Virus record (IMG/VR): IMGVR_UViG_3300022707_000398
Strand: one strand, 5' to 3'
Origin: a virus
DNA length: 36,118 bases
Position numbers and translations under genes: made by a program. Every line of letters begins with the position of its first letter. Within the stretch, counting starts at the first letter, position 1. Below, one piece after another: positions 5,364 through 35,740 of the stretch. The notes under the pieces were generated by a model. The model searched no databases and was not told the origin of the DNA. It saw only the letters and a list, made by a program, of their open reading frames with translations.

Positions 5364-5435
5364 AACATAATAAATTATTTAACCGTTGTCAAATAAAATA
5401 TTTAACTTGACTAAAATAAAATATTTAACTATTTT
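5364..5435. promoter_or_regulatory. Divergent promoter/operator region with three phased 17-bp sites
   Basis: Perfect direct repeats 'AAATAAAATATTTAACT' lie at 5391-5407 and 5414-5430, with a 14/17 copy at 5368-5384; starts are 23 bp apart. Rightward promoter: TTGACT (5407-5412), 17 nt, TATTTT (5430-5435). Leftward promoter: TTGACA (5392-5387), 17 nt, TATGTT (5369-5364). Confidence 0.6.
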
Positions 5436-5679: not shown

Positions 5680-6024
5680 ATGGCTGATAACATGGCTGAT
5701 AAATTAAAAAATAAGAACCCCGACAAGCACGATAACGGCGGTCCTTTGTCAGACGATGACAAAAAGGATTTGATCCGCGAGCTTGACGCAAATCTTACAC
5801 CGCTCGAAAAAATCAAGACCGATGCCAACGATCAAATGAAAGCGTTGCGCCGAGACTTTAAAAAGAAAACAGGCATTGTTCAAAATGAATTCAATGCTAT
5901 GCGTAAATTGGCGTTCATTGAAGACGAAGACGAGCAAAATCAAAAGACAGCGAATATGAAACTTTGCTTTGATGCTCTTTCACCAAACAAGCAACTAAAC
6001 TTCTTTGACGGTGATGATGAGTAA
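5680..6024 (+). CDS. Acidic coiled-coil protein, possibly DUF2312/GapR-like (114 aa)
   Basis: ORF track. The layout 'MKALRRDFKKKTGIVQNEFNAMRKLAFIEDEDEQ' resembles the alphaproteobacterial GapR/DUF2312 family as I remember it. The family call is weak. Confidence 0.6.
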   Translation: MADNMADKLKNKNPDKHDNGGPLSDDDKKDLIRELDANLTPLEKIKTDANDQMKALRRDFKKKTGIVQNEFNAMRKLAFIEDEDEQNQKTANMKLCFDALSPNKQLNFFDGDDE

Positions 6025-6550
6025 TTCATATCTCACATTAGACTTGGCGACCATGAGCGGCTTTTGCTTGTGGAAGCCGGGATCTAAGCCCACAGTCGGC
6101 ATCATGGATTTAAAGACTTGGTACACTGACAATTACCAAAAAGCCCTGTCTGTCCATTACAATCGGATCAATCGGCTTGTTGTTGAAAACGATGTGAATA
6201 TCATTTGTTTCGAAGCGCCATTGATCGTGCGCCGTGGAGCAAAAACAACATCAACTAAGAACGCTCGTAAACTTATTGGCCTTGCAAACATCGTTGAATT
6301 GATATGTGGTCAGTATGGGATTGCTTGTTATGAAGCCGAGGTTTCACAGTGGCGGAAGCATGTTCTAGGTCACGGACAATTAAGCACTGATGTTGCTAAA
6401 GATAAGGCAATGAAGGTTGCTAAGGGATGCGGACTTGATCCAGCCACACATGATGCAGCGGAAGCCTTCTGTATCATGGACTATTGTGCGGACATTCTGC
6501 ACGAAAAGAAGGACTGGAAAGATCCTGTTAATTTTAGATGGAAACTATAA
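6014..6550 (+). CDS. RuvC-like Holliday junction resolvase (phage type)
   Basis: 'LTLDLATMSGF' (Asp), 'CFEAPLI' (Glu) and 'HDAAEAFCIMDY' (Asp-x-x-Glu/Asp) are in RuvC order. The track start at 6005 is a TTG, so I moved it to the ATG at 6014. Confidence 0.6.
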   Translation: MMSNSYLTLDLATMSGFCLWKPGSKPTVGIMDLKTWYTDNYQKALSVHYNRINRLVVENDVNIICFEAPLIVRRGAKTTSTKNARKLIGLANIVELICGQYGIACYEAEVSQWRKHVLGHGQLSTDVAKDKAMKVAKGCGLDPATHDAAEAFCIMDYCADILHEKKDWKDPVNFRWKL

Positions 6551-6557
6551 ATAATAT

Positions 6558-6687
6558 GGAGTGGGTAGCGCAGTATGGTAGCGCGTCCGGTGCACCGAGA
6601 TAATAAGAAAGAAAGTATAATTAACTTACGGAATTATTATCTTACCAGAGAGGAAGGTCGCGGGTTCAAATCCCGCCCCGCTCCCCA
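6558..6687 (+). tRNA. tRNA-like gene with canonical acceptor/D/T arms, encoded CCA, a G-1:C73 pair (His-like) and about 52 extra nt where the anticodon arm should be
   Basis: Acceptor GAGTGGG (6559-6565) pairs with CCCGCTC (6677-6683). TA precedes the D arm GCGC-AGTATGGTA-GCGC. T arm is GCGGG-TTCAAAT-CCCGC, then discriminator C6684 and CCA at 6685-6687. The 74 nt from 6586 to 6659 give no canonical 5-7-5 anticodon arm. Confidence 0.5.
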
Positions 6688-6690
6688 ATA

Positions 6691-6700
6691 ACTTAACTAC
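6691..6700 (+). promoter_or_regulatory. Weak early-junction-like motif 'ACTTAACTAC'
   Basis: Lies 4 nt after the tRNA-like CCA and 25 nt before the ATG at 6716, followed by SD GGAG. It lacks the CG core. Confidence 0.3.
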
Positions 6701-6715
6701 AATGGAGAAATAAAA

Positions 6716-7090
6716 ATGTTTAACTTTTTTAAAAACGAAAAAACAAAAGCTCTTGAAACTCAAGTTAATGAGCTTGAAAGTAAATGCGAAAAACTATCAA
6801 CTGATCGTCTTGGATTGAAGGAAGAAGTTGAAGACCTAAAACTTAAGAAAAAAATGTCAGAAGAAGACATTAAGCATATGGTCAAGATGAAAGAAGAAAA
6901 ACTTGACATTGAACATCAAAAAAAGATGCAAGCTCTTGAGCTTGAAAAATACAAAGCCATTGCTGAAGTAAAAGATGAATACCGAGATAAAATCGAAGTT
7001 CGTCTTGAAAAAGAAGGCGAGACTATAAAAGACATGTATGCTCAAATTCTTGAACGTCTTCCAAATATTTCCGCTAAGTTGAAGTTATAA
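6716..7090 (+). CDS. Coiled-coil protein (124 aa)
   Basis: ORF track; Lys/Glu-rich heptad-like sequence; SD GGAG upstream. Confidence 0.65.
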   Translation: MFNFFKNEKTKALETQVNELESKCEKLSTDRLGLKEEVEDLKLKKKMSEEDIKHMVKMKEEKLDIEHQKKMQALELEKYKAIAEVKDEYRDKIEVRLEKEGETIKDMYAQILERLPNISAKLKL

Positions 7091-7344
7091 TGGCCGTGGG
7101 GATTTATGATGCGTTATGCGGTCAAGCTAGTACTTTGGGTCAGCAGAGCAGACTGTTAGGACAGCCCACAAATCCTTTTGATCAACTTGGTGGTTTGGCA
7201 GCTCAAGCACAAGCACACCATGCTAGATTAAATTCAATAATGGGCATCGGATTAAGAGAAGAAAGGGTATTAATTTCTGAACCCGAAACACTAAGAGAAG
7301 AACTTCAACTTGAAACTGATAACTGGCTAAAAGATACAATTTAA
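7090..7344 (+). CDS. Hypothetical protein (84 aa)
   Basis: ORF track; TAATG junction with the previous gene. Confidence 0.55.
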   Translation: MAVGIYDALCGQASTLGQQSRLLGQPTNPFDQLGGLAAQAQAHHARLNSIMGIGLREERVLISEPETLREELQLETDNWLKDTI

Positions 7345-7362
7345 ACTTTAAAGGAGTAGATT

Positions 7363-7530
7363 ATGAATATATTAGAAAGAATATTATGTAAGTTCGGCCT
7401 TCATAATTGGTCGGCATGGGAACAAGGCGAAGGTATAAGAACCGGTCTTTTTATTAGGGTTCCCGAACGATGTAATATGCAAGACCGTAAATGTAAAACA
7501 TGCGGCACATCTGAAACAGAAATCCTTTAA
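7363..7530 (+). CDS. Small Cys-containing protein (55 aa), possibly DUF1660-like
   Basis: My own translation: MNILERILCKFGLHNWSAWEQGEGIRTGLFIRVPERCNMQDRKCKTCGTSETEIL; strong SD AAAGGAG. The family name is from memory only. Confidence 0.5.
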   Translation: MNILERILCKFGLHNWSAWEQGEGIRTGLFIRVPERCNMQDRKCKTCGTSETEIL

Positions 7531-7550: not shown

Positions 7551-7964
7551 ATGAAATGGAATAAAGAAAATACAGATAAATTAAAAAACCTTGTCGCAGA
7601 TAAAAAAACAGCGCGGCAAATTGGGGATATATTAAACACGACCAAGAATTCGGTTATTGGTAAATGTCGCCGTATGGGGTTTAAGATTAATTCTCTTGTA
7701 TCGTGCGGACCAAAGAGAAAGCGGCCTGCTTTGAAGTCAGATAGAATGGTGTTGTCTAGTATAAAAAAGCATACTGATAGCCACGGTTGGGGCTTGGAAT
7801 TTGATGAAATCATTGAATATTCTGGTCTTCCCGCTGACATTGCGGTGACTTCAGTTAGAAGACTTATTTCTGAAAAAACCCTTAACAAAACAATTTCAAA
7901 TGTTGCGGATCATGTATTTTTTAATGATGCGAGCGTGAAGCAGTTAGGAGTTCCATCATGTTGA
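7551..7964 (+). CDS. gcrA: GcrA-like cell-cycle regulator homolog
   Basis: N-terminus 'WNKENTDKLKNLVADKKTARQIGDILNTTKNSVIGKCRRMGF' matches the GcrA DNA-binding domain pattern (W..E....L..L......A..I...L...+N.VIGK..R.G). Confidence 0.7.
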   Translation: MKWNKENTDKLKNLVADKKTARQIGDILNTTKNSVIGKCRRMGFKINSLVSCGPKRKRPALKSDRMVLSSIKKHTDSHGWGLEFDEIIEYSGLPADIAVTSVRRLISEKTLNKTISNVADHVFFNDASVKQLGVPSC

Positions 7965-33376: not shown

Positions 33377-33585
33377 TTAACATGGATATTCTCCATGTGG
33401 GTTACAGTTTTTACAAGGATAACCGTTATCACAATCTTCTGGCTCATTACAACCGCGACACATATCATCACAGCAGCCGTGAAACCATCCCTCTTGGTGA
33501 CGCAACCAATCCCACCAAAGTCGTCGTCATCTAATGGTCTATCACCATCATTGTCGAATGCTTCATTCCAATGTTCATCATCCAT
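33377..33585 (-). CDS. Acidic N-terminus plus Cys-rich C-terminus protein, only obtained with a -1 frame change near 33511-33516
   Basis: Frame A from ATG 33585 gives MDDEHWNEAFDNDGDRPLDDDDFGG... Frame B, open from 33526 to the stop at 33377-33379, gives ...DWLRHQEGWFHGCCDDMCRGCNEPEDCDNGYPCKNCNPHGEYPC*. See the corresponding finding. Confidence 0.3.
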
Positions 33586-34531
33586 TTTCGACCTCACTAA
33601 CGAATAGTTGTTGCAATATGTAAACAATAACATTGATCGTCCATCCGTTGCCGAGCAGCTTATAACGCTGCGTGTTGCTTACATGGTTTGTGTAGTCTTC
33701 CGGCACATTTTGTAATCTCTCACACTCGACCGGGGATAGTCTTCTTAATGAAATGTCATTATCTTTAATCCAGGCTAAGAAGTTGTTTTGTTGCCAGGAG
33801 CTTGCCGATAATGTCGGAACCTTGCCGTTAATAGCTCTTGCGCCGGCCGGGTTATTCCCTCGACCGATGAAATGTATAAATGTAGTGCCGCTATCAAGTG
33901 ACAATTGCCCTGAATTATTTTTGGTGTTTAGCGTGCCGGTCTTGTCCGGGCTTATTCTTTTTATTGCTGTATTTGAAATTATCAAACTGCTGCAATCCTG
34001 TTCGTGGTCAACAATATCTTTAAGCAATATTCCTGTATCTTCTGGCTGATTGAAAGCCCAATTCGCCCAGTAATACCGTTTTCTATTTTGTGCACTTACC
34101 AGTGATGAATTTATCAAAACTGGCTGAACTCCAAGATATTCACTTATTATGTCCCTACTTCTCCCGGTCATTTTGACATTCTCTAATAAGAATTTAATGC
34201 CCGGGTTAAGCTTCTTAATATGTTTCCATATGTCCACAAAAACAAAGAATAGCTTACTTCGTACATCATCAAACTCAAGCTGCAACCCGGAAAAACTGAA
34301 GCCCTGACAAGGCGACCCGGCAATAAGTAAGGATATACTTGACCAGTCAATATCCCATTCCCGCCAATTCAAGATATCCCCTAATTGTATAGTACCCGGG
34401 TAATTAGCTTGTGTGACGATGTTCGCATACTGATCAATTTCGCTTGAATAGTATTTATCAACCTTAATCCCTGCTCGATCGAGAGCAAGCGCACCACATG
34501 ACATGCCGTTGAATAAAGAAAGGACGTTCAT
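33578..34531 (-). CDS. DNA (cytosine-5)-methyltransferase, orphan
   Basis: Motif I 'LSLFNGMSCG', IV 'GSPCQGFS', VI 'LENV', VIII 'SAQNRKRYYW' and X 'LLGNGWT' in canonical order. No adjacent restriction endonuclease candidate. Confidence 0.85.
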   Translation of the reverse strand: MNVLSLFNGMSCGALALDRAGIKVDKYYSSEIDQYANIVTQANYPGTIQLGDILNWREWDIDWSSISLLIAGSPCQGFSFSGLQLEFDDVRSKLFFVFVDIWKHIKKLNPGIKFLLENVKMTGRSRDIISEYLGVQPVLINSSLVSAQNRKRYYWANWAFNQPEDTGILLKDIVDHEQDCSSLIISNTAIKRISPDKTGTLNTKNNSGQLSLDSGTTFIHFIGRGNNPAGARAINGKVPTLSASSWQQNNFLAWIKDNDISLRRLSPVECERLQNVPEDYTNHVSNTQRYKLLGNGWTINVIVYILQQLFVSEVENG

Positions 34532-35527: not shown

Positions 35528-35549
35528 ACTTAACGCCCGATGTGGGGCG
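35528..35549 (+). promoter_or_regulatory. Early-junction motif copy 'ACTTAACGCCC' plus hairpin CGCCC-GATGTG-GGGCG
   Basis: Starts 2 nt after the stop at 35524-35526. It is followed by the tRNA-like gene rather than a CDS. Confidence 0.55.
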
Positions 35550-35598
35550 GCGTGGAAAGTGGACACGCTTAGCAAAGTGATTAACCGTCATATAGCTA

Positions 35599-35690
35599 AA
35601 TAATGTAGCTCAGAGGATAGAGCAGCTTTCGAAATCTTTGTGGTGAAGAAAATAGTCAGTGTGTCATGGGTTCGAGTCCCATCATTATAA
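35599..35690 (+). tRNA. tRNA-like gene with canonical D and T arms, an AT-only acceptor stem (A1-A72 mismatch), no encoded CCA and a 41-nt central region with no canonical anticodon arm
   Basis: Acceptor AATAATG (35599-35605) / CATTATA (35683-35689). TA precedes the D arm GCTC-AGAGGATA-GAGC. T arm is ATGGG-TTCGAGT-CCCAT. The 41 nt from 35625 to 35665 are about 19 nt more than a class I tRNA needs. Confidence 0.45.
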
Positions 35691-35698
35691 ATAGCAGG

Positions 35699-35708
35699 AT
35701 TAACGCCC
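35699..35708 (+). promoter_or_regulatory. Early-junction motif, variant 'ATTAACGCCC'
   Basis: Lies 9 nt after the tRNA-like element. It is followed by CCCCACATCG (35712-35721), the inverted complement of CGATGTGGGG (35538-35547). Confidence 0.45.
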
Positions 35709-35730
35709 TGCCCCCACATCGTAATCTATA

Positions 35731-35740
35731 ACTTAACACC
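35731..35740 (+). promoter_or_regulatory. Early-junction motif, variant 'ACTTAACACC'
   Basis: Lies 20 nt upstream of the ATG at 35751, followed by SD GGAG. Confidence 0.4.

What the first reader, a model, noticed from the sequence alone, without database searches (positions are those of the whole stretch)
6558..6687. tRNA-like gene with His-type G-1:C73 and encoded CCA but a 74-nt core replacing the anticodon arm
The acceptor stem, U8/A9, the D arm with GG, the T arm (TTCAAAT), the discriminator and CCA are all textbook. The extra 5' G6558 pairs with discriminator C6684, which is the bacterial tRNA-His identity element. Between the D and T arms there are 74 nt instead of about 22, and I cannot draw a 5-7-5 anticodon arm. 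Instead there is a perfect 10-nt palindrome CGGTGCACCG (6588-6597, containing GTG) and a perfect 8-bp helix GATAATAA/TTATTATC (6599-6606 / 6634-6641) capping a 27-nt A-rich loop. TCCG (6586-6589) can alternatively pair with CGGA (6629-6632), which would form a pseudoknot with that helix. A 52-nt insertion is far too short for a group I intron, and bacteria lack BHB splicing. The element may therefore be a new kind of phage tRNA-derived RNA: a decoy for anticodon nucleases or tRNA-targeting defences, an RNase P/Z processing punctuation mark, a primer or packaging mimic, or an unusual intron-containing tRNA.
Basis: partly seen in the sequence, partly recalled or inferred. Interest (0 to 1): 0.65.

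Follow-up and report, generated by a model that had tools for sequence, protein, structure and literature searches.

The report
Anticodon-less tRNA mimic in a phage
A marine P22-like phage carries a small gene that folds like the top half of a transfer RNA but has no anticodon arm, so it probably acts as a tRNA look-alike rather than in decoding; a related phage has a diverged copy at the same spot.

Summary
Window 6558-6687 (+) matches the Rfam tRNA model (44.7 bits). It has a perfect 8-bp acceptor stem including G-1:C73, intact D and T arms, the core tertiary nucleotides and an encoded CCA. Between the D and T arms lie 75 nt instead of about 22.

No single deletion and no internal hairpin gives a canonical 5-7-5 anticodon arm, so it is neither an ordinary tRNA nor a recognisable intron-bearing one.

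It is not a one-off. A related phage contig (L186) has a diverged tRNA-like gene at the same site, just after the RuvC-like gene. It shares G-1:C73, a 2-3-bp stub, a different perfect palindrome with its centre within one nucleotide of el1's, a second hairpin and a purine-rich tail. Two further viral members (L031, L190) and a second element in this window (35599-35690) share the plan.

Scaffold pairs covary: 67 of 67 cells are paired and six pairs show double changes. About ten other relatives lack the element, so it is an optional cassette at a mosaic junction.

Best reading (confidence 0.4): a processed, non-decoding tRNA mimic. Function is inferred, not shown. Insertion-bearing tRNAs are common in viral contigs and have been called "enigmatic introns", so this is a new variant of a known kind.

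The parts
6558..6687 (+). Whole tRNA-like gene el1 (G-1 to CCA), 130 nt
   Evidence: RF00005 scores 44.7 bits, E 2e-8 and 1.6e-6 window-wide. Sequence read.
6558..6565 (+). 5' strand of the 8-bp acceptor stem (G-1, G1-G7)
   Evidence: Pairs with 6677-6684. On alignment A3 all acceptor cells are paired and four pairs show double changes across homologues.
6677..6684 (+). 3' strand of the acceptor stem (66-72) plus C73, which pairs with G-1
   Evidence: G-1:C73 is also present in L186 and L190.
6568..6584 (+). D arm GCGC-AGUAUGGUA-GCGC (A14, G15, U17a, G18, G19, A21)
   Evidence: The same 20-mer is the D arm of bacterial tRNA-Pro genes. G15:C48, U17a and G49 are bacterial tRNA-Pro core elements (PMC9976931).
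6586..6588 (+). 5' strand of the 3-bp stub (UCC) left of the anticodon stem
   Evidence: Pairs with GGA at 6652-6654 in the Infernal alignment. Stubs of 2-3 bp occur in L186, L031 and el2, and of 5 bp in L190.
6588..6597 (+). Perfect 10-nt palindrome CGGUGCACCG, in the place of the distal anticodon stem and loop
   Evidence: Its centre lies 8 nt after the D stem. L186 (GUGUACAC), L031 (GAUGCAUC) and el2 (UUUCGAAA) have palindromes centred 7-9 nt after the D stem.
6598..6642 (+). AT-rich hairpin: 9-bp stem (6598-6606 with 6634-6642) and 27-nt A-rich loop. This is the variable arm of the family.
   Evidence: It is replaced by CCCUC-UUAU-GAGGG in L186 and by UUAUAAUU-GAAA-AAUUAUAA in L031.
6643..6651 (+). 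Purine-rich single strand UACCAGAGA
   Evidence: Compare ACAAGAUA in L186 and ACAGGGA in L031 at the same place. Read directly from the sequences.
6652..6654 (+). 3' strand of the stub (GGA)
6655..6659 (+). Variable loop AGGUC (G46; C48 pairs with G15)
   Evidence: Identical in L186 and L190.
6660..6676 (+). T arm GCGGG-UUCAAAU-CCCGC
   Evidence: Two T-stem pairs covary across homologues.
6685..6687 (+). Encoded 3' CCA
   Evidence: Not encoded in L186, L031 or L190.
6014..6550 (+). Upstream RuvC-like resolvase gene. Its stop codon lies 7 nt before G-1 and marks the left edge of the mosaic junction.
   Evidence: PHROG 159 match. DNA homology to L182 stops exactly at 6550.
6688..6715 (+). 5' UTR of the next gene (AUAACUUAAC, then GGAG, then AUG). 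This is the right edge of the junction.
   Evidence: Homology to L184 and L185 starts at 6687-6691. In L184 the same motif follows the RuvC stop directly. The motif is common at gene starts.
35599..35690 (+). Second anticodon-less tRNA-like element (el2) with the same plan: stub GCU/AGU, palindrome UUUCGAAA, hairpin UCUU-UGUGGUG-AAGA and an A-rich tail. It has no CCA and an A1.A72 mismatch.
   Evidence: RF00005 scores 39.6 bits. Sequence read. No anticodon arm.

Best explanation
el1 is a structurally intact but non-decoding tRNA-like RNA gene, a tRNA mimic. It is carried as an optional cassette in the early rightward operon of a marine P22-like phage, between the RuvC-like resolvase gene and the 5' UTR of the next gene.

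Shown:
- The acceptor stem (8 bp with G-1:C73), the D arm, the T arm, the variable loop and the elbow and core nucleotides are all intact, and the scaffold pairs covary among homologues.
- The anticodon arm is replaced by a 2-3-bp stub (5 bp in L190). The stub carries a self-complementary 8-10-nt segment, a hairpin of variable size and a purine-rich strand.
- No anticodon arm can be recovered.

Inferred:
- It is co-transcribed from the early promoter near 5407-5435.
- Host RNase P cuts between U-2 and G-1, as for bacterial pre-tRNA-His, and the 3' end is trimmed to the encoded CCA. This would release a stable RNA of about 130 nt.
- Because it cannot read a codon, it works by being bound. It would act as a mimic or decoy for a host factor that recognises the acceptor/T/D part of tRNA, such as a tRNA-targeting defence nuclease, HisRS through G-1:C73, or a processing or modification enzyme.

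Speculative: the palindrome lets two molecules pair tail to tail.
For: The tRNA model matches strongly. All 17 scaffold pairs are formed. On the four-member alignment, 67 of 67 cells are paired, six pairs show compensatory double changes, and 0 of 500 shuffles reach the observed covariation score. Slid controls give 43-55% paired.

A syntenic homologue lies in L186 directly after its RuvC-like gene. It scores 45.4 bits and shares G-1:C73, the same D arm and T loop, AGGUC, a stub, a palindrome, a hairpin and a tail. Compensatory differences from el1 occur at 2:71, 4:69, 50:64 and 51:63.

The palindromes of el1 and L186 have centres within one nucleotide of each other (8 and 7 nt after the D stem) and differ at three of four symmetric levels, yet both stay perfect. 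L031 and el2 also have 8-nt palindromes centred 7-9 nt after the D stem. L190 has CCGGUGCACCGG.

No 5-7-5 arm with U33 and R37 exists after any single deletion or anywhere inside the insert.

The element is an accessory. It is absent from L182 (RuvC 97% identical) and from eight other relatives: L183, L184, L187, L188, L189, L191, L192 and L193. L185 lacks it upstream of its 124-aa homologue. Such variable slots in early operons are typical of host-takeover and counter-defence genes (established knowledge).

U-2 precedes G-1 in el1, L186 and L190. G-1:C73 is the main bacterial His identity element, and HisRS charges mini- and microhelices that carry it (PMC9976931). Phage tRNAs are known counter-measures to tRNA-cleaving defences (PMC10264068 and PMC12409363, abstracts).
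Against: No expression, processing or binding data exist. Only four or five members were found, so the palindrome argument rests on few sequences and was partly noticed after the fact.

Palindromes are not enriched in a general sample of insertion-bearing viral tRNAs: 16 observed against 15.7 expected. In the other sample, 1 of about 50 had one at that position.

L031 has U-1:A73, not G-1:C73, and el2 has neither. CCA is encoded only in el1. The inner domain folds weakly and differently in each member. No partner protein co-occurs. Most relatives do without the element.
Confidence: 0.4

Rival explanations
1. A cis-acting processing and stability element, working like the mascRNA that follows MALAT1 or like mitochondrial tRNA punctuation. 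RNase P and RNase Z/E would cut at the tRNA-like fold and separate the upstream early mRNA (cro-like gene, 114-aa ORF, RuvC-like gene) from the downstream genes. The released RNA would be a by-product.
For: Both el1 and el2 lie in intergenic gaps 0.5-1.1 kb downstream of predicted early promoters, directly before a gene's 5' UTR. Only the parts that RNase P and RNase Z read (acceptor, T arm, elbow) are conserved, while the inner domain varies freely in size, from 34 to 69 nt.
Against: Relatives express the same gene pairs with no element between them: RuvC followed directly by the GcrA-like gene in L182 and L191, and by the 124-aa gene in L184. It does not explain the maintained palindrome, the G-1:C73 pair or the encoded CCA.
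Confidence: 0.2
2. A decaying tRNA pseudogene or recombination scar. A tRNA-Pro-like gene was captured at a mosaic junction and lost its anticodon arm to an insertion or deletion. It persists without function.
For: The D arm and the core (G15:C48, U17a, G49) are tRNA-Pro-like. The element sits exactly between two homology blocks and is absent from most relatives. A degenerate tRNA-like relic exists in relative L003 at 2519-2582. A stem whose loop is deleted becomes a palindrome by itself.
Against: There are zero mismatches in 17 scaffold pairs of el1. A diverged homologue at the same site (L186) keeps every pair through four compensatory changes and keeps a different perfect palindrome with its centre within one nucleotide of el1's. 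Neutral decay would break pairs.
Confidence: 0.15
3. A true tRNA gene with an unconventional short intron that is removed by an unknown, perhaps phage-specific, pathway, like the 'enigmatic introns' of Lak megaphage tRNAs.
For: Insertion-bearing tRNAs with intact acceptor stems are common in viral contigs. Many regain a perfect anticodon arm after one deletion, for example the class with a hairpin plus ACAGCAA inserted after nt 27-29. This is published for Lak phages (10.1101/356790). ARAGORN -i forces a model on el1.
Against: For el1, L186, L031, L190 and el2, the best single-deletion models lack U33 or have weak stems. They score 3.7-5.35, against 6.5-6.75 for real cases. The ARAGORN model (Ser-GCT with a 32-nt intron at 35/36 and an unpaired 27-nt variable region) is not credible. 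No BHB, group I or ribozyme signal was found. No RNA ligase or splicing endonuclease turned up among the 40 or so ORFs of the window that I searched.
Confidence: 0.1
4. The relevant feature is at the DNA level. The palindrome and the AT-rich segment would form a protein-binding, recombination or replication site that happens to lie in a tRNA-derived sequence.
For: Complementarity extends to the innermost positions of the palindrome, which cannot pair within one hairpin (sequence). The element lies at a recombination junction. A small recombinase-like ORF lies near el2, and a resolvase lies in L186.
Against: The half-sites differ at three of four positions between el1 and L186, so no common protein site is conserved. 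No integrase was found. The AT-rich segment is absent from L186. This reading does not explain covariation in the acceptor and T stems.
Confidence: 0.07

Closest known systems
Canonical bacterial and phage tRNA genes (Rfam RF00005), in particular tRNA-Pro(GGG) and tRNA-His
   Same: Acceptor, D and T arms, the variable loop, U8, A14, G18G19, G53-U54-U55-C56, A58 and CCA. The D arm and core are identical to tRNA-Pro of marine Gammaproteobacteria. G-1:C73 is as in bacterial tRNA-His.
   Different: There is no 5-7-5 anticodon arm and no anticodon. The Pro acceptor identity (A73, G72) is absent, and GUG is not presented in a loop. It cannot decode.
'Enigmatic introns' of Lak megaphage tRNAs (Devoto et al., 10.1101/356790) and the hairpin+ACAGCAA insertion class seen here in IMG/VR tRNA arrays
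   Same: These are phage-encoded tRNA genes with tens of extra nucleotides in the anticodon region. They are undetected by bacterial tRNA finders and have no known removal mechanism.
   Different: Removing the insert from those tRNAs restores a perfect anticodon arm with a sensible anticodon. In el1 and its relatives it does not. el1 lacks the ACAGCAA motif and lies alone in an early operon, not in a tRNA array.
Phage T4 stable RNAs species 1 and 2 (rnaC, rnaD)
   Same: These are phage-encoded small stable RNAs of unknown function. rnaC has a tRNA-like T arm plus an acceptor-like 3' part and lies next to tRNA genes. Processing by RNase P is stated from memory.
   Different: rnaC gives only a weak tRNA-Sec hit (17.5 bits, E 0.7). 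It has no D arm or elbow match and no sequence similarity to el1.
mascRNA (the tRNA-like RNA cut from MALAT1) and mitochondrial tRNA punctuation
   Same: A tRNA-like fold embedded in a longer transcript. It has a degenerate anticodon loop and is used as an RNase P/Z cleavage signal (established knowledge).
   Different: These are eukaryotic. No homology exists: the Rfam mascRNA model does not match el1. Processing of el1 is untested.
Histidine-accepting tRNA-like structures (TLS) of plant RNA viruses
   Same: These are viral, non-decoding tRNA mimics with an N-1:N73 pair that makes them HisRS substrates (PMC9976931; PMC8127992, abstract).
   Different: TLS elements sit at the 3' end of RNA genomes and build the acceptor arm with a pseudoknot. 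el1 is a DNA-phage gene with an ordinary cloverleaf top half. Charging is untested.
Bacterial Y-RNA-like YrlA and tmRNA
   Same: These are tRNA-like modules in which the anticodon arm is replaced by another domain.
   Different: The YrlA model gives no hit on el1, and tmRNA models give no hit or 10.5 bits against a gathering score of 47. The acceptor stem of el1 is built from its own 5' and 3' ends, with no capping loop. From memory, in YrlA the RNA ends form the Ro-binding stem instead. G3:C70 replaces the tmRNA G3:U70, there is no tag ORF, and el1 is only 130 nt long.

Membership tests
tRNA (RF00005, functional decoding tRNA) | Acceptor stem, D arm and T arm with conserved core nucleotides | tested here: met
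   44.7 bits against a gathering score of 29. All pairs are formed.
tRNA (RF00005, functional decoding tRNA) | Anticodon arm: 5-bp stem and 7-nt loop with U33 and purine 37 | tested here: not met
   63 nt replace 11 model positions. There is no such hairpin in the insert or after any single deletion.
Bacterial tRNA-His | Genome-encoded G-1 paired with C73 | tested here: met
   G6558:C6684. Also present in L186 and L190, but not in L031 or el2.
Bacterial tRNA-His | Anticodon GUG at positions 34-36 of a canonical loop | tested here: not met
   GUG at 6590-6592 lies inside the palindrome, is preceded by G rather than U33 and is followed by C. Its offset differs in L186.
Bacterial tRNA-His | Aminoacylation by HisRS | not testable with these tools
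   Needs an in vitro charging assay.
tRNA with a group I intron | Self-splicing intron of 200 nt or more with a P1-P9 core in the anticodon loop | tested here: not met
   The insert is about 52-63 nt and matches no Rfam intron family at E up to 10.
tRNA with an archaeal or eukaryal BHB intron | Removing the intron restores an anticodon arm; bulge-helix-bulge at the exon-intron junctions | tested here: not met
   No deletion restores an arm. The ARAGORN intron mode gives an implausible model. I did not search for a BHB motif directly.
Viral tRNAs with the hairpin+ACAGCAA insertion (class seen in IMG/VR) | An insertion of 40-48 nt after nt 27-29, with a conserved ACAGCAA after a hairpin and an intact anticodon arm 3' of it | tested here: not met
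   The motif and the arm are absent in el1 (against 44).
tmRNA | tRNA-Ala-like end with G3:U70, a tag reading frame and pseudoknots, 250 nt or more | tested here: not met
   ARAGORN -m finds nothing. tmRNA_permuted scores 10.5 bits against 47. The pair is G3:C70 and the length is 130 nt.
YrlA / Y RNA-like | A Ro-binding stem formed by the RNA ends, with the tRNA-like module internal | tested here: not met
   No RF02553 hit on el1 at E up to 10. The acceptor stem is formed by the element's own ends.
el1 family proposed here (anticodon-less phage tRNA mimic) | Intact tRNA top half; a 2-3-bp anticodon stub; a perfect palindrome of 8 nt or more centred 7-9 nt after the D stem; a second hairpin; a purine-rich strand | tested here: met
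   Met by el1, L186, L031 and el2. L190 is a variant, with a 5-bp stub and the palindrome at a hairpin tip.

The most novel reading that the evidence does not exclude
el1 and its relatives are a new class of phage small RNA. They would be anticodon-less tRNA mimics matured by RNase P to carry G-1:C73 and charged by HisRS, making them a DNA-phage counterpart of plant-virus tRNA-like structures. They would pair tail to tail through the self-complementary segment that replaces the anticodon. The dimer would bind and neutralise a dimeric tRNA-binding host factor, such as a tRNA-cleaving defence nuclease or a class II synthetase.
Probability: 0.12. Interest if true: 0.8.

Novelty: new variant of a known kind. 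Interest (0 to 1): 0.55.

Why it matters
Phage tRNA genes are now viewed as weapons against tRNA-cleaving bacterial defences. Short "introns" in phage tRNAs have been reported but not explained.

This locus shows something different. The tRNA scaffold is kept under structural selection while the decoding arm has been replaced. The element occurs as an optional cassette in early operons, twice in one 36-kb genome.

If such RNAs are stable and bind tRNA-recognising proteins, they would be a compact class of RNA decoys that standard tRNA finders miss. The scans here also suggest that dozens of viral contigs carry tRNA-likes with non-canonical anticodon domains, so the phenomenon can be studied with existing data.

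Tried and rejected
1. Ordinary tRNA. ARAGORN default finds nothing, and there is no 5-7-5 arm.

2. Intron-bearing tRNA. ARAGORN -i/-io/-ps forces 'Ser(gct) + 32-nt intron at 35/36' on el1 and 'His(gtg) + 7-nt intron at 32/33' on el2. Both have unpaired long variable regions, so I rejected them.

3. tmRNA, YrlA, ribozymes and riboswitches. No Rfam hit near threshold.

4. attP or an integration remnant. No integrase turned up among the 40 or so ORFs I searched, and both tRNA halves are present.

5. A promoter inside the insert. TATAAT lies at 6616-6621, but there is no -35 box, the scan reports no site, and the AT-rich segment is absent in L186.

6. A small ORF. ATG at 6556-6558 opens a 15-codon frame (MEWVAQYGSASGAPR), and L186 has a similar 16-codon frame. 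Neither has a Shine-Dalgarno sequence, and L031 has no such frame. I rejected it as a by-product of the U-2/G-1 leader and the conserved D arm.

7. ATAACTTAAC as a signal specific to the element. It is part of a TTAAC-SD motif at many gene starts.

8. A long-range helix enclosing el1. Only weak AT-rich repeats were found.

9. Searches that found no further homologue:
- phage GenBank records by megablast and blastn
- the RuvC-like protein against phage records
- IMG/VR patterns

My gap ranges (N45-75) were 2-3 nt too short to match el1 itself. The single metagenome scan therefore could not have found equal-length copies.

10. RNAcofold dimers. The palindrome pairs between molecules, but homodimer minimum-free-energy structures always gain from domain swapping, so this is weak evidence.

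11. Palindromes as a general rule for viral tRNA inserts. They are not enriched.

Full report
**Observation**

- The 7-bp acceptor stem is GAGUGGG/CCCGCUC, extended by G6558:C6684.
- U8 and A9 are present.
- The D arm is GCGC-AGUAUGGUA-GCGC, the variable loop is AGGUC, and the T arm is GCGGG-UUCAAAU-CCCGC.
- CCA is encoded.

Infernal scores it 44.7 bits on the Rfam tRNA model (gathering score 29). The E-value is 2e-8 locally and 1.6e-6 over the whole window, and 63 nt are looped out of the anticodon arm. Default ARAGORN and gathering-mode cmscan with standard filters both miss it.

The 10-nt palindrome (6588-6597) and the AT-rich helix are exact. The helix is really 9 bp: 6598-6606 with 6634-6642. 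The D and T stems are 75 nt apart.

**No hidden anticodon arm**

I enumerated every single deletion that would leave N26 + 5 + 7 + 5 + a 4-5-nt variable loop. The best model for el1 has loop ACCAGAG without U33 and scores 5.1. Genuine intron-bearing viral tRNAs treated the same way score 6.5-6.75.

No 5-7-5 hairpin with U33 and purine 37 exists anywhere in the insert. ARAGORN in intron mode forces an implausible 'Ser(gct)' model. No Rfam intron, ribozyme, tmRNA or YrlA model matches.

**Genomic setting**

The window is a P22-like podovirus with P22-type portal, coat, terminase and head-closure proteins. Its nearest cultured phages are Pseudoalteromonas and Vibrio phages, at about 37% portal identity.

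el1 lies in a rightward early operon:
- a predicted promoter at 5407-5435
- a cro-like HTH gene
- a 114-aa ORF
- a RuvC-like resolvase gene (6014-6550)
- el1
- three small ORFs
- a GcrA-like regulator gene and replication genes

I found no integrase among the 40 or so ORFs I searched.

**Comparison with relatives**

Homologues of the two flanking proteins gave twelve related contigs.
- In L182 (RuvC 97% identical), DNA homology stops exactly at the RuvC stop (window 6550). It resumes at the GcrA-like gene (7525), so el1 and the three ORFs are absent.
- In L184 and L185, homology to the downstream gene begins at 6687-6691, at the last base of el1 or just after it.
- In L184 the RuvC stop is followed directly by AUAACUUAAC, the Shine-Dalgarno sequence and the gene.
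- L183, L187, L188, L189, L191, L192 and L193 also have no tRNA-like gene after RuvC.

el1 is therefore a discrete, optional segment of about 137 nt at a mosaic junction.

**A homologue at the same site**

L186 is a 38-kb contig whose RuvC is 60% identical. It has a tRNA-like gene 22 nt after its RuvC stop and just before its GcrA-like gene (45.4 bits):

uauG GUGAGGG UA GCGC AGCUUGGUA GCGC A CC GUGUACAC CCCUC-UUAU-GAGGG ACAAGAUA GG AGGUC GUUGG UUCAAAU CCAAC CCCUCAC C.

It shares these features with el1:
- the U-2/G-1 leader and G-1:C73
- the D-arm stems and the T loop (the D loop differs at two positions)
- AGGUC
- a short stub
- a perfect palindrome with its centre within one nucleotide of el1's
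- a second hairpin
- a purine-rich strand

It differs by compensatory changes at 2:71, 4:69, 50:64 and 51:63. The palindromes differ at three of four symmetric levels (CGGUG|CACCG against GUGU|ACAC).

**Further members**

A metagenome phage contig (L031) carries one: stub CGG/CCG, palindrome GAUGCAUC, hairpin UUAUAAUU-GAAA-AAUUAUAA and tail ACAGGGA.

An IMG/VR contig (L190) carries one with G-1:C73 and CCGGUGCACCGG at a hairpin tip. A second long tRNA-like lies next to it.

On the four-sequence alignment, all 67 scaffold cells pair and six pairs show double changes. No shuffle of 500 reaches the covariation score, and slid controls pair at 43-55%.

**A second element in the window**

The window itself holds a second element, el2 (35599-35690, 39.6 bits). 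It has the same plan: stub GCU/AGU, UUUCGAAA, hairpin UCUU-UGUGGUG-AAGA and an A-rich tail.

**The palindrome**

Its centre lies 7-9 nt after the D stem in el1, L186, L031 and el2. This is where the anticodon loop would begin. For one sequence, the chance of a palindrome of 8 nt or more at those three positions is about 0.012. Three members not selected for it (L186, L031, el2) all have one.

Complementarity reaches the innermost positions, which cannot pair within one hairpin. Monomer folds leave the segment mostly unpaired, and cofolding pairs it between molecules (weak evidence). This suggests intermolecular pairing or a DNA-level constraint.

The variable half-sites argue against a common protein site.

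One caution applies. In 76 other insertion-bearing viral tRNAs, palindromes are not enriched (16 observed against 15.7 expected). Among about 50 other arm-less viral tRNA-likes, only one has a palindrome at that position. The rule, if real, holds only for this subfamily.

**Identity signals**

The D arm 20-mer is that of bacterial tRNA-Pro(GGG), for example in Halieaceae and Porticoccaceae. G15:C48, U17a and G49 are bacterial tRNA-Pro core elements. G-1:C73 is the major bacterial His determinant and suffices for HisRS to charge minihelices (PMC9976931).

el1 is thus a Pro-type body with a His-type acceptor end and no anticodon. Whether it is charged cannot be tested here.

**Interpretation**

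The intact, covarying scaffold argues against a decaying pseudogene. The lack of any recoverable anticodon arm argues against a spliced tRNA. The absence from most relatives argues against an essential mRNA-processing role.

The best-supported reading is a processed, non-decoding tRNA mimic carried as an accessory early gene. Its target is unknown. A decoy for a tRNA-binding host factor is the most plausible role, given current knowledge of phage tRNAs as counter-defence (PMC10264068, PMC12409363). That step is inference.

**Context and novelty**

Short unexplained insertions in phage tRNAs have been published for Lak megaphages (10.1101/356790). My IMG/VR scans returned at least 240 loci with long D-to-T spacing and intact acceptor stems. 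They include a large class that regains a perfect anticodon arm on removal of a hairpin+ACAGCAA insert.

T4 rnaC is only a weak partial tRNA-like.

The el1 architecture is not in Rfam. I found no description of it in two targeted literature searches. I rate it a new variant of a known kind.

Noticed in passing
window 35529-35740; L186 4040-4200: el2 lies inside a conserved non-coding leader downstream of an early promoter. Hairpin GCGUG-GAAAGURGA-CACGC and hairpin GCAGG-AUUAACGC-CCUGC are conserved in L186. A long-range helix closes the region, and its sequence covaries: CGAUGUGGGG/CCCCACAUCG in the window, AUGCGAG/CUCGCAU in L186. L186 has an unrelated stretch of about 85 nt where the window has el2. 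This looks like a structured leader RNA with an exchangeable arm.
   Followed up: partly
L061-L180 (e.g. L072 6635-6734, L091 1490-1586, L068 10101-10768, L075 329-445): This is a large class of viral tRNAs, often several in a row in tRNA arrays of gut-metagenome contigs. They carry a 40-48-nt insertion inside the 5' strand of the anticodon stem, after nt 27-29. The insertion is a 6-7-bp hairpin, often with a GNRA-type loop, followed by a conserved ACAGCAA(U). Removing it restores perfect anticodon arms with many anticodons, including CUA. G-1:C73 is frequent. No Rfam family matches the insert.
   Followed up: partly
L088, L140, L144, L162, L165, L176: Another recurrent insertion in viral tRNA-likes carries the conserved sequence CCCUCAAGGUGAAGGRCCAAAAYGC...GGGAAUAAA. 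No anticodon arm is recovered by simple deletion.
   Followed up: no
L190 935-1095: Directly after the L190 family member lies a second tRNA-like (GGGGUGG/CCACCCC acceptor). Its insert is about 115 nt and contains an 18-nt palindrome, CCCGGGUGCGCACCCGGG. Both elements are preceded by near-identical GC-rich hairpins.
   Followed up: no
window 6551-7524: A module of el1 plus three small ORFs (124, 84 and 55 aa) is present in the window. It is absent from L182, whose RuvC-like gene (97% identical) overlaps the GcrA-like gene directly. The RuvC/GcrA junction is a hot spot for accessory cassettes: L183 has a 108-aa ORF there.
   Followed up: yes
window 856, 6693, 7527, 10878, 35733 (+); 32994, 1873 (-): A motif, (C/T)TTAAC followed 4-10 nt later by GGAG and a start codon, recurs at gene starts. 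The longer form ACTTAACGCCC recurs at junctions (window 463, 739, 35530, 35700; L186 4176, 5140, 10523). It may be a boundary sequence used in modular exchange.
   Followed up: partly
L189 12183-12250: An Rfam int-alpA RNA match above the gathering score (41.9 bits against 35.8) lies between the GcrA-like and DnaB genes of a related phage contig.
   Followed up: no
L003 2519-2582: A degenerate tRNA-like sits in a 300-nt intergenic gap of a distant relative. It matches RF00005 at 38.9 bits over model positions 5-66 only, its acceptor stem is not paired, and its loop CGGUAAA lacks U33.
   Followed up: partly
L181 1069-1200: A tRNA-Pro-like body in a 77-kb viral contig has a 58-nt insertion at about the canonical 37/38 position. 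The stem is UCAGA/UCUGA, the loop is UUUGAAA, and CCA is encoded.
   Followed up: no
window 6556-6605; L186 10539-10589: An ATG that ends at G-1 opens a 15-16-codon frame through the 5' half of the tRNA-like in both phages: MEWVAQYGSASGAPR and MVRVAQLGSAPCTPLL. Neither has a Shine-Dalgarno sequence, so this is probably incidental.
   Followed up: partly
window 7551-7964 and 33578-34531: The phage encodes a GcrA-like regulator and a DNA methyltransferase. The pairing recalls methylation-dependent GcrA control in Caulobacter (from memory). Relatives L182, L186, L189 and L191 also carry the GcrA-like gene.
   Followed up: no
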